Source of the DNA: a virus
Taxonomy: Duplodnaviria > Heunggongvirae > Uroviricota > Caudoviricetes
IMG/VR virus record: IMGVR_UViG_2690316086_000006
Direction: 5' to 3' (one strand)
Length of the DNA stretch: 17,334 nucleotides
Shown: positions 12,022-12,823 of the stretch, piece after piece
How the letters are laid out: every line of letters begins with the position of its first letter
Numbering within the stretch: the stretch's first letter is position 1
Position numbers and translations under genes: made by a program
Notes under the pieces: model-generated
Told to the model about the DNA's origin: nothing
Database searches by the model: none
Seen by the model: only the letters and a program-made list of their open reading frames with translations

Positions 12022-12823
12022 GGCTTACCCCCTTGCTGACTGGTTTTACCTGTGCCCTGACGTGCTGCACGTGGCGGGCAAATTTCTGCTCCCACTGAAC
12101 CTGCGTGAAAACCTTCCCCTCCGCCATCCAGTAATCCCGGAATGCGGCAAGCTCAGCAGGTGTAAATTCCGGCTCAGGCAGAGCCATACCCCACACTGCT
12201 GCCCGTTGTCGAAAATCCGGCGACGGCTGCCAGACAGTAGTCATCGAAAATTTCCCGATCGGTTCGCTCAGGCCGTCCAGGTATTCAGGTTCGGCTGTCT
12301 GCAACGGCGCACCATGCGACTCACTGGTCGGAATACTCTCGCGTTCACGCACGTTATGTGTGGGGTTTAATTCTTTTAGATCTGTATCTTTATTAGTTGC
12401 TTTTGTGTTTGCGTCATGTTCAAACACAACACCAACATTTGTTTGAACACCTGTTAAATCTCTCTCTTGTTTTGTTTGAACATATGCTTCCTTTCTGCTT
12501 CTTCTGGCCTGAACAGATGCTTTTCCGGCGGCTGATTTTTTGGTCAATTTTTCCCTGACTGATGCCAGATCTTCCTCAATCCGAAGATGCACCCATTCAT
12601 CGCTGTTATCGCAAAAAAACTCCCGCAAGGATGGTTCCACATCAGCCCATCGCTCGTTAGTCAGACGGGAAATTTTTGCCAGCCTGTTTTTAGGTATTGG
12701 TTTCCCTGTTTGCCAGTAATTGAACATCAGCAACAAATACGCACCGTGCTCCTCTGCGGACAAATGCATGGTGTCAGCCAGGTAATCAGCTATGTACAGT
12801 TGCATGTATGGTAATGCGGCCAT
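11813..12823 (-). CDS. Replication initiation O-like protein (YdaU/DUF1376-type N-terminal domain, DnaT-like C-terminal region)
   Basis: ATG at 12823 with GAGG Shine-Dalgarno (track start at 12877 is TTG); MAALPYMQLYIADYL...EHGAYLLLMFNYW signature; AT-rich repeat region in the middle of the gene. Confidence 0.6.
   Translation of the reverse strand: MAALPYMQLYIADYLADTMHLSAEEHGAYLLLMFNYWQTGKPIPKNRLAKISRLTNERWADVEPSLREFFCDNSDEWVHLRIEEDLASVREKLTKKSAAGKASVQARRSRKEAYVQTKQERDLTGVQTNVGVVFEHDANTKATNKDTDLKELNPTHNVRERESIPTSESHGAPLQTAEPEYLDGLSEPIGKFSMTTVWQPSPDFRQRAAVWGMALPEPEFTPAELAAFRDYWMAEGKVFTQVQWEQKFARHVQHVRAQVKPVSKGVSHAASGGTASRAVQEIRAAREQWERENGFISNGNGLEAVGAYGGGVFEPLDSEERGRTFEALDCPDWCDD
12361..12490. 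repeat. Putative replication origin: AT-rich tract plus three copies of TGTTTGAACA / TGTTCAAACA
   Basis: 10-bp motif at 12417-12426 (inverted), 12440-12449 and 12473-12482 next to an AT-rich stretch (12361-12415) inside the O-like linker, as for lambda ori. Confidence 0.4.

What the first reader, a model, noticed from the sequence alone, without database searches (positions are those of the whole stretch)
12361..12490. Candidate replication origin inside the O-like gene
An AT-rich tract is followed by three copies of a 10-bp motif, one inverted (12417-12426, 12440-12449, 12473-12482). They fall in the apparent inter-domain linker of the initiator, paralleling lambda ori with iterons inside O.
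Basis: partly seen in the sequence, partly recalled or inferred. Interest (0 to 1): 0.45.

Follow-up and report, generated by a model that had tools for sequence, protein, structure and literature searches.

The report
Prophage replication origin inside initiator gene
A short stretch inside the replication-initiator gene of an E. coli Rac-type prophage carries repeated DNA motifs and an easily melted tract that are conserved as DNA rather than as protein, so it is very probably the phage's replication origin, built like the origin of phage lambda but for a different initiator family.

Summary
TGTTCAAACA occurs exactly three times (12417-12426, 12440-12449, 12473-12482), and only there in 17 kb. 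An AT-rich, low-stability tract (12361-12410) lies beside the copies. All of this sits in the disordered linker of a minus-strand initiator gene (11813-12823), which has an N-terminal DUF1376 domain and a C-terminal DnaT-like domain and is followed by a lambda-P-like loader gene.

The N-terminal domain is not homologous to lambda O. Comparison of about 40 DUF1376 initiator genes from enterobacteria, Pseudomonas, Azotobacter and isolated phages shows the same layout at this point. Palindromic-arm motifs (CGTT[C/G]AACG, or GTTCAAAC in Rac types) spaced at multiples of 11 bp are followed by an (ACAGAT)n or other low-complexity tract.

Synonymous sites are almost frozen in this stretch. Identical codons given identical amino acids occur at 0.83, against 0.42 in the strongly conserved domain. 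All 72 Thr and 64 Asp codons in the TD runs are ACA and GAT.

Recombination joints with other replication modules fall in the AT tract. An O-like N-terminal domain fused to the same C-terminal half brings its own repeats.

The origin reading is supported, but binding and replication were not tested. This is a new member of a known kind, of moderate interest.

The parts
11813..12823 (-). Replication initiator gene (336 aa). It has an N-terminal DUF1376 domain, a long helix, a disordered linker and a C-terminal DnaT-like domain.
   Evidence: ORF and translation. Pfam PF07120 at aa 5-87 and PF17948 at aa 192-258. PHROGs 'primosomal protein / replication initiation protein'. A profile of the family matches solved DnaT C-terminal domains 6aep and 9zbt. 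The conserved MAALPY start in all homologues fixes the ATG at 12823.
12563..12811 (-). Coding sequence of the DUF1376 domain (aa 5-87), the predicted winged helix that is the candidate origin-binding domain.
12473..12482 (-). Motif copy 1 (TGTTCAAACA on the gene strand). It lies in a 4-codon insertion found only in Rac-type genes.
   Evidence: The insertion 'YVQT' is present only in the window and the E. coli relative in alignment A2.
12440..12449 (-). Motif copy 2 (TGTTCAAACA on the gene strand). It is invariant in the four Rac-type sequences aligned.
12428..12437 (-). Degenerate middle copy. The gene strand reads TGTTGGT here, whereas K-12 Rac has TGTTGAA, 11-12 bp from its neighbours.
   Evidence: Alignment A1. 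K-12 repeat families D1/D2 and their spacing.
12417..12426 (+). Motif copy 3, which reads TGTTCAAACA on the + strand and TGTTTGAACA on the gene strand.
12361..12410 (.). AT-rich, low-stability tract and candidate unwinding element. It includes GATACAGATCT (12378-12388, gene strand), which is the remnant of the family's (ACAGAT)n run, and a GATC at 12379.
   Evidence: GC 0.34. Minimum duplex stability at 12366-12405. The (ACAGAT)n run is conserved with fixed codons in homologues.
12376..12389 (.). Recombination joint between the N-terminal-plus-repeats module and the C-terminal-plus-loader module.
   Evidence: K-12 Rac matches only from 12380 upward (A1). PPompW-type phages match only 11813-12376/12389, and phage 683R6 matches only 12380-12823.
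12720..12726 (-). Possible outlying weak copy (TGTTCAA) inside the domain-coding part. It corresponds to one of the extra GCTGATGTTCAA copies of K-12 Rac.
   Evidence: It is not significant on its own.
11359..11820 (-). Lambda-P-like helicase loader gene. Its ATG at 11820 overlaps the initiator stop codon (ATGACTGA).
   Evidence: Pfam PF06992 and PHROG 'P-like helicase loader'. Sequence read. The same gene boundaries are annotated in E. coli M8.

Best explanation
The stretch at about 12361-12483 is the replication origin of this Rac-type lambdoid prophage, embedded in the linker-coding part of its own initiator gene. Proposed mechanism: after derepression, the rightward-type operon (cro-like ydaS, ydaT, initiator, P-like loader; all on the minus strand here) is transcribed through the origin. 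The initiator's N-terminal DUF1376 winged-helix domain, probably dimerised through the long helix at aa 80-123, binds the quasi-palindromic TGTT-NN-AACA sites. These sites lie at roughly 11-bp multiples, so on about one face of the helix. The resulting nucleoprotein complex destabilises the adjoining AT-rich / GATACAGATCT tract. The C-terminal DnaT-like domain together with the P-like protein then delivers host DnaB to the opened DNA. What is shown: the motifs, their significance, the weak-duplex tract, the domain layout, the disordered state of the encoded peptide, family-wide conservation of this stretch at the DNA level, and modular exchange at the AT tract. What is inferred: which domain binds the motifs, unwinding, helicase loading, and origin activity itself.
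For: 1. Three exact 10-mers lie within 66 bp and nowhere else in the window. None arose in 500 Markov simulations, and one arose in 5000 synonymous-codon permutations.
2. The adjacent AT-rich tract has GC 0.34 and a local stability minimum.
3. The position is between the DUF1376 and DnaT-like domains, in a segment that AF2 predicts as disordered. Protein structure therefore does not explain its conservation.
4. Across 39 non-redundant genes (38 homologues from genome contigs plus the window), the GTT[C/G]AAC / GTTCAAAC class occurs at 7.7 per kb in the linker against 0.28 per kb in the rest of the loci. The site consensus is AACGnnCGTTSAACGnnCGTT, and CGTT spacings peak at 11, 22 and 33 bp.
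5. The constraint is at the DNA level. 'RST' tripeptides use CGT 21/24, TCA 23/24 and ACG 24/24, against about 17-23% for these codons elsewhere in the same genes. TD runs use ACA 72/72 and GAT 64/64, against 20% and 50% elsewhere, including in hosts with 57-65% GC. The commonest codon accounts for 0.9-1.0 of sequences across most columns of reference aa 124-152, against a mean of 0.59 in the domain. In 453 divergent pairs, identical codons given identical amino acids occur at 0.83 in the linker, 0.42 in the domain and 0.33 after the linker.
6. Isolated phages (Pseudomonas UFJF_PfDIW6 and AH02, Ralstonia UAM5) keep CGTTCAACG plus a low-complexity tract at the same place, next to DnaC-like loaders.
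7. Modularity: recombination joints lie at 12376-12389. The same C-terminal half fused to an O-like HTH N-terminal domain (PPompW phages) carries different repeats, CAAAGACACCCAAA in about 5 copies, in its linker.
8. K-12 Rac, which PMC3945230 states has an active origin oriJ, carries the same three copies at 93% identity.
9. The DUF1376 model is a winged helix, similar to the ORC/Cdc6 and plasmid-initiator winged-helix domains.
Against: No experiment was available here or in the papers held that maps oriJ or shows initiator binding. The only coordinates found for 'oriJ' (PCR primers in PMC3945230) lie in ydaV, 0.7 kb from the motifs. That amplicon has no repeats and normal GC, so it may be only a nearby copy-number probe.

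Variants with an identical DUF1376 domain but a T5orf172 insert (L006 and others) lack the motif entirely. The DUF1376 domain may therefore not be the motif reader, or those variants use another reader.

The central spacer varies (GTTCAAC versus GTTCAAAC), which is awkward for a rigid dimer.

Within Rac types, copy 1 (Rac-SA53) and copy 3 (strain M8) each carry substitutions.

The AT tract is only the seventh weakest site in the window, and no DnaA box lies nearby.

Codon identity in the hexamer run could partly reflect slippage homogenisation.
Confidence: 0.7

Rival explanations
1. The DNA-level conservation marks a cis element other than the origin. One option is an autoregulatory operator, where the initiator or a host factor binds to throttle transcription or translation of the initiator and loader genes. 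Another is a conserved homology patch that promotes exchange of replication modules between phages.
For: Recombination joints with three other module types fall exactly in the conserved AT / GATACAGATCT tract. The conserved stretch sits at the border between a constant N-terminal module and at least three kinds of C-terminal module. Nothing here distinguishes binding for initiation from binding for repression.
Against: A homology patch needs no 11-bp phasing, no palindromic arms and no multiple copies. Different N-terminal modules bring different repeats to the same place, which argues for specific protein recognition and against generic homology. The pairing of repeats with an easily melted tract inside an initiator gene is the documented origin layout (PMC7466680). 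In lambda the origin is also the module border, so this rival is partly a consequence of the main reading. No copy of the motif occurs in the operator region at 13600-13720.
Confidence: 0.12
2. The repeats are a by-product of a low-complexity, repetitive linker peptide (VQT...VQT, TDTD) and have no function as DNA.
For: Copies 1 and 2 are in the same reading frame and both encode V-Q-T. The linker peptide motifs RSTxVE and TDTDTD recur across the family. Hexanucleotide runs can expand by slippage.
Against: Synonymous sites are nearly invariant here and randomised in the much more conserved domain. ACA and GAT codons are kept in GC-rich hosts. The segment is predicted to be disordered. Permuting synonymous codons reproduces the 10-mer cluster in 1 of 5000 trials. 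Copy 3 encodes an unrelated peptide (VFEH) from the opposite orientation.
Confidence: 0.06
3. The true origin lies elsewhere in the replication module, for example inside the loader gene as the oriJ primers of PMC3945230 might imply, or in the operator region. On this view the repeats are auxiliary or vestigial.
For: Primers described as framing oriJ map to K-12 ydaV at L057 3741-3895. The AT-richest site of the window is the operator region at 13634-13673.
Against: The ydaV amplicon has GC 0.50-0.55 and no repeats. The window has a P-like loader in place of ydaV, yet it keeps the ydaU-type repeats. The operator region is the usual AT-rich divergent-promoter region and carries no copy of the motif.
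Confidence: 0.08
4. The conserved sequence acts as RNA, either as a hairpin in the initiator mRNA formed by copies 1 and 3 or as an overlapping antisense gene.
For: Copies 1 and 3 can pair, giving an MFE of -22.8 kcal/mol. One antisense frame is open across the stretch in 19 of 33 genes.
Against: The fold z-score is only -1.7, and 12 of 200 shuffles fold as well. Most family members have direct repeats at 11-bp spacing that cannot form this hairpin. The antisense frame is interrupted in 14 of 33 genes. There is no Rfam match in the region.
Confidence: 0.04

Closest known systems
ori-lambda inside gene O of phage lambda and the Stx phages (933W, P27)
   Same: The origin lies in the middle of the initiator gene and consists of repeated initiator-binding sites followed by an AT-rich tract (PMC7466680). 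A P-type helicase loader gene lies immediately downstream. The repeats and the N-terminal domain travel together as a module, and the C-terminal half travels with the loader.
   Different: The N-terminal domain is DUF1376, not Phage_rep_O. The C-terminal domain is DnaT-like. The repeats are 10 bp with 4-bp palindromic arms, in three exact copies at 23 and 33 bp, and not the four to six iterons of lambda and the Stx phages. The family version is a 9-bp palindrome at 11-bp phase, often in two clusters, followed by a hexanucleotide microsatellite. Binding and origin activity are not demonstrated.
oriJ of the E. coli K-12 Rac prophage (ydaU-ydaV region)
   Same: K-12 ydaU shares the N-terminal domain and the whole repeat region with the window at 93% identity, including all three copies. 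Rac is stated to have an active origin, oriJ (PMC3945230). A plasmid study of oriJ is cited in PMC11014345.
   Different: The window's gene has a DnaT-like C-terminal half and a P-like loader, where K-12 has its own C-terminal half and the DnaC/IstB-like YdaV. The fine map of oriJ could not be read, so identity with oriJ is an inference.
Iteron origins of theta plasmids (RepA, RepE, TrfA and pi initiators)
   Same: They combine a winged-helix initiator, phased repeats and an adjacent unwinding element. For some Rep proteins the unwinding element is also bound sequence-specifically as single-stranded DNA (abstracts of PMC4081077 and PMC10602881, listed). The conserved (ACAGAT)n tract could play that role.
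E. coli DnaT (primosomal protein I)
   Same: The C-terminal domain is homologous to the DnaT C-terminal DNA-binding domain (Pfam PF17948; PDB 6aep and 9zbt).
   Different: DnaT acts in PriA-dependent replication restart and has no origin of its own. Here the domain is fused to an origin-associated N-terminal module and paired with a phage loader.

Membership tests
Lambda-type origin (ori embedded in the initiator gene) | The origin lies in the middle of the initiator gene, between the part encoding the N-terminal domain and the part encoding the C-terminal domain. | tested here: met
   The motifs encode aa 114-136 and the AT tract aa 138-155. DUF1376 is at aa 5-87 and the DnaT-like domain at aa 192-258. 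The segment is disordered in the model.
Lambda-type origin (ori embedded in the initiator gene) | There are several repeated sites (iterons), more than chance would give. | tested here: met
   Three exact 10-mers: 0 of 200 shuffles, 0 of 500 Markov simulations and 1 of 5000 synonymous permutations reach this. A degenerate fourth copy lies between copies 2 and 3.
Lambda-type origin (ori embedded in the initiator gene) | An AT-rich tract adjoins the iterons on the downstream side of the gene. | tested here: met
   GC is 0.34. The stability minimum is at 12366-12405, 2.8 sd below the mean. The order along the gene is repeats, then AT tract.
Lambda-type origin (ori embedded in the initiator gene) | The initiator is a homologue of lambda O. 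| tested here: not met
   Pfam gives DUF1376 plus DnaT and no Phage_rep_O. The PHROGs matched are 'primosomal protein' or 'replication initiation protein'. The families labelled 'replication initiation O-like' were hit only by the PPompW protein.
Lambda-type origin (ori embedded in the initiator gene) | A P-type helicase loader is encoded immediately downstream. | tested here: met
   PF06992 and PHROG 109 'P-like helicase loader'. Its start overlaps the initiator stop.
Lambda-type origin (ori embedded in the initiator gene) | The repeats change with the N-terminal domain, giving module specificity. | tested here: met
   The same C-terminal half joined to an O-like HTH N-terminal domain has different repeats. 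The T5orf172-insert variants have CGTAG-type repeats instead. The joints lie at 12376-12389.
Lambda-type origin (ori embedded in the initiator gene) | The initiator binds the repeats, and the fragment replicates in an initiator- and loader-dependent way. | not testable with these tools
   This needs EMSA or footprinting and a trans-complementation replication assay.
Rac prophage oriJ | The sequence is homologous to the K-12 Rac replication region. | tested here: met
   Window 12380-12560 is 93.4% identical to K-12 ydaU. All three copies are present in K-12.
Rac prophage oriJ | The element coincides with the experimentally mapped oriJ. | tested here: inconclusive
   The mapping papers are not held, and MG1655 carries no oriJ feature. 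The primers called 'framing oriJ' lie in ydaV, 0.7 kb away, in featureless sequence.
Iteron-type plasmid origin | The initiator has a winged-helix fold. | tested here: inconclusive
Iteron-type plasmid origin | There are DnaA boxes and direct repeats of about 17-22 bp outside the rep gene (these defining values are from general knowledge, not from a paper read here). | tested here: not met
   No DnaA-box-like site lies within 700 bp of the motifs. The repeats are 10 bp and lie inside the gene.

The most novel reading that the evidence does not exclude
DUF1376 (YdaU-type) initiators define a widespread and so far uncharacterised class of phage origins with a shared DNA code. This code is arrays of the 9-bp palindrome CGTT[C/G]AACG at 11-bp phase, often in two clusters about 190 bp apart with one inside the sequence coding the predicted recognition helix, followed by an (ACAGAT)n microsatellite or another low-complexity tract. 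On this reading the origin dictates the sequence of the initiator's disordered linker (RSTxVE...TDTDTD) from enterobacteria to Pseudomonas, Azotobacter and beta-proteobacteria. The hexamer run would be a sequence-specific loading or single-strand binding element and not merely an AT-rich spacer.
Probability: 0.5. Interest if true: 0.6.

Novelty: new member of a known kind. Interest (0 to 1): 0.45.

Why it matters
It gives base-pair coordinates and a testable architecture for the origin of Rac-type prophages. These prophages are present in a large share of E. coli genomes: 868 of 5426 complete genomes match this stretch. I found no fine map of their origin, oriJ, in the accessible literature.

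It assigns a likely role, origin recognition, to DUF1376, a domain of unknown function found in phages of many proteobacteria.

It is also a clear case of a non-coding function constraining a coding sequence. Annotators and codon-based evolutionary analyses would otherwise read the conserved linker peptide as a protein feature.

For engineering, synonymous recoding of this gene would be expected to destroy the origin.

Tried and rejected
- **Shuffle test with 1 mismatch:** it was uninformative (expected 1.9). It was replaced by the exact-match test and a cluster test.
- **Shorter core TGTTSAA:** it is not enriched over the whole window (11 matches against 7.7 expected), so the extra copies at 12720 and beyond are only suggestive.
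- **Literature:** the paper on oriJ plasmids (PubMed id 10964622) is not held. A search for 'oriJ' alone returned unrelated hits. Searches for DUF1376 and ydaU found no description of an origin.
- **MG1655 annotation:** it has no oriJ feature.
- **oriJ primers from PMC3945230:** they map into ydaV, and that amplicon shows no origin-like features.
- **Plasmid collection:** DUF1376 genes occur only on very large replicons, presumably within prophages, so there is no evidence of use as a plasmid Rep.
- **RNA explanations:** there is no Rfam hit and the hairpin is weak.
- **Overlapping gene:** rejected, because no other frame is consistently open.
- **DnaA boxes and IHF consensus near the motifs:** none were found.
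- **Promoter and terminator scan:** it showed nothing above expectation inside the gene.
- **Sequence search of solved structures:** only the DnaT-like half matched, so a model had to be used for the N-terminal domain.

Full report
**Context.** The window is part of an E. coli Rac-type lambdoid prophage. The stretch 12300-12560 is 100% identical to chromosomal prophages of several E. coli strains and matches 868 of 5426 complete E. coli genomes. All replication genes here are on the minus strand. They are, in order:
- a repressor-type HTH gene on the + strand (13725-14123);
- a cro/YdaS-like gene (13344-13604);
- a YdaT-like gene (12910-13347);
- the gene that holds the finding (11813-12823);
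- a lambda-P-like helicase loader (11359-11820);
- a DUF1627 gene.

The P-like ATG at 11820 overlaps the stop of the upstream gene (ATGACTGA).

**Check of the observation.**
- TGTTCAAACA is at 12417-12426 (+), 12440-12449 (-) and 12473-12482 (-). There is no other copy in 17 kb even with one mismatch.
- Chance expectation is 0.08 copies, and 0 of 200 shuffles reach three.
- A test free of motif choice asked for any 10-mer or its complement occurring three times within 100 bp. It gave 0 of 500 Markov simulations, and 1 of 5000 permutations of synonymous codons that keep the protein.
- The arms TGTT/AACA are palindromic, so the 'inverted' copy differs only in the central CA/TG.
- Centre-to-centre spacings are 23 and 33 bp.
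- The AT-rich tract is real: GC is 0.34, and a local stability minimum lies at 12366-12405, 2.8 sd below the mean and seventh weakest in the window.
- In gene orientation the order is repeats, then AT tract, then the C-terminal domain. PMC7466680 describes iterons flanked by an AT-rich tract in the middle of gene O of lambda and the Stx phages.

**Comparative evidence.** I collected 50 loci from one-genome-per-species contigs with the conserved N-terminal peptides, and several isolated phages. The DUF1376 domain is extremely conserved. The C-terminal halves fall into at least three unrelated types. Directly after the domain and the long helix, almost every gene has two elements:
- two to four copies of GTT[C/G]AAC, which is GTTCAAAC/GTTTGAAC in the Rac types;
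- then a run of ACAGAT hexamers, or in some Pseudomonas and Ralstonia members another low-complexity tract such as (GAAGA)n or (GAACCAA)n.

The motif class occurs at 7.7 per kb in this 180-nt slot against 0.28 per kb in the remaining 239 kb of the loci. The aligned sites give AACGnnCGTTSAACGnnCGTT, and CGTT spacings peak at 11 (29 cases), 22 (17) and 33 (5) bp. This is a phased array on one face of the helix.

**The conservation is in the DNA, not the protein.**
- The tripeptide RST that the motif encodes uses CGT 21/24, TCA 23/24 and ACG 24/24. These codons make up about 17%, 18% and 23% of R, S and T codons elsewhere in the same genes.
- In the TD runs, all 72 Thr codons are ACA and all 64 Asp codons are GAT, against 20% and 50% elsewhere. 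This holds in loci of 57-65% GC.
- A column-by-column profile shows one codon used by 90-100% of sequences across most columns of reference aa 124-152. The far better conserved domain averages 0.59, and the value falls to 0.3-0.5 after aa 153 (Mann-Whitney p = 7e-5).
- In 453 sequence pairs with at most 80% identity in the domain, the chance that an identical amino acid is encoded by the identical codon is 0.42 in the domain, 0.83 in the linker and 0.33 after it.

The encoded peptide is predicted to be disordered. The simplest reading is therefore a cis-acting DNA element that dictates the linker peptide. Mapped to the window, the constrained stretch is about 12368-12466. Copy 1 (12473-12482) lies in a 4-codon insertion specific to Rac types, which amounts to a gained copy.

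**Modularity.** K-12 Rac ydaU matches the window only from 12380 upward. It then continues into a different C-terminal half followed by a DnaC/IstB-like YdaV. PPompW-type phages match only 11813-12376/12389. Phage 683R6 matches only 12380-12823. The joints therefore fall in the AT tract. The PPompW initiator has an O-like HTH N-terminal domain on the same DnaT-like half, and its linker carries its own repeats, CAAAGACACCCAAA in about five copies. This is the behaviour expected if the N-terminal domain and its binding sites form one specificity module and the C-terminal half goes with the loader.

**Complications.** A subgroup (E. coli A34, Kosakonia, Phytobacter and several Pseudomonas) keeps the DUF1376 domain; in A34 it matches the window's up to about aa 77. 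In this subgroup the motif-bearing segment is replaced by a T5orf172/GIY-YIG-type domain. The coding sequence of that insert is full of CCGTAG / GTAGCTAC repeats, and these loci contain no cluster of the GTTSAAC class. If it is not, the basic long helix or a host factor would be candidates. I cannot decide this.

Other weaknesses are as follows. The spacer between the arms varies between one and two bases. Copy 1 is altered in Rac-SA53 and copy 3 in strain M8. There is no DnaA box nearby.

On oriJ, PMC3945230 states that Rac has an active origin, and an oriJ plasmid study is cited in PMC11014345. The mapping papers are not held and MG1655 has no oriJ feature. The primers described as framing oriJ lie in ydaV, 0.7 kb from the repeats, in sequence with normal GC and no repeats. 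I read them as a nearby copy-number probe, but this is a point against certainty.

**Rivals.**
- A purely peptide-level explanation is contradicted by the synonymous-site data.
- An RNA hairpin between copies 1 and 3 is weak (z = -1.7) and cannot form in relatives that have direct repeats.
- No alternative frame is consistently open.
- Rfam finds nothing in the region.
- A non-origin cis element, such as an autoregulatory operator or a recombination patch, cannot be excluded. It explains the phasing, the palindromic arms and the attached weak-duplex tract less well than an origin does.

**Verdict.** The main correction is that the initiator is a DUF1376/DnaT-like protein and not an O homologue. 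I put 0.7 on the stretch 12361-12483 being the prophage's origin. It works like ori-lambda, but it fails the homology criterion for that family. It is best filed as a new member of the known kind 'origin embedded in the phage initiator gene', and it is probably the counterpart of Rac oriJ. The family-wide code of phased CGTTSAACG sites plus (ACAGAT)n appears undescribed in the literature I could search and is the more interesting by-product.

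Noticed in passing
L006 1933-3216 (-); also L032, L033, L036, L038, L040: A subgroup of DUF1376 initiators replaces the motif-bearing linker with a T5orf172/MUG113 (GIY-YIG-type) domain. 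The coding sequence of that insert and the segment after it are packed with CCGTAG / GTAGCTAC repeats. The GTTSAAC class is absent from these loci, but the ACAGAT run is kept in five of the six. This looks like a swapped origin-specificity cassette.
   Followed up: partly
Homologous genes, nt ~420-470 from the ATG (e.g. L027, L039, L042, L046-L049, L059); window remnant at 12378-12388: A run of ACAGAT hexamers encodes TDTDTD with 2-8 copies, always using ACA and GAT codons even in hosts of 57-65% GC. Some Pseudomonas and Ralstonia members instead have (GAAGA)n or (GAACCAA)n at the same place. Its role (unwinding element, single-strand binding site or slippage-prone spacer) is unknown.
   Followed up: partly
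Homologous genes, nt ~165-215 from the ATG (e.g. L014-L031, L058); window equivalent 12609-12659: Most family members have a second cluster of CGTT(G)AA(CG) sites at 11-bp spacing. It lies inside the sequence coding the predicted recognition helix (NDRWxxVExSLxEFF) and shows biased codons (AAC, CGT, GTT, GAA, TCG, TTG). The cluster is degenerate in the window, while K-12 Rac keeps GCTGATGTTGAA there.
   Followed up: partly
L003 2501-3541 (-) (Stx2a/PPompW phages): An initiator with an O-like HTH N-terminal domain is fused to the same DnaT-like C-terminal half as in the window (85% DNA identity). Its linker has its own repeats, CAAAGACACCCAAA(AACGG), in about five copies.
   Followed up: partly
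L057 3741-3895 (MG1655 1422240-1422394, inside ydaV): The PCR primers described in PMC3945230 as framing oriJ amplify a 155-bp piece of ydaV with no repeats and normal GC. It lies 0.7 kb downstream of the repeat cluster in ydaU.
   Followed up: yes
K-12 YdaU C-terminus (L001 3638-4495, -) versus DnaT (6aep, 9zbt): The K-12-type C-terminal half gets no Pfam DnaT hit. It nevertheless ends in ...PDSAIPPGFRG, like the DnaT tail ...PDNHIPPGFRG, which suggests a shared C-terminal interaction motif.
   Followed up: no
window 16102-16153 (+): There is a full-length Rfam match to DicF antisense RNA (75 bits). It fits a Qin/Rac-type dic region next to the immunity genes.
   Followed up: no
window 1320-1492 (-) and 2112-2363 (-): There is a match to the sRNA STnc100 (104.7 bits). 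There is also a cluster of three phage-borne tRNA genes: Arg-tct, Arg-tcg and Met-cat.
   Followed up: no
search hit H2 (Actinobacillus phage vB_Apl-pPE4, PP818812.1 9015-9595): A phage recorded as infecting Actinobacillus pleuropneumoniae shares 88% DNA identity with the C-terminal half of this E. coli prophage gene. That is unexpectedly high across such different hosts.
   Followed up: no
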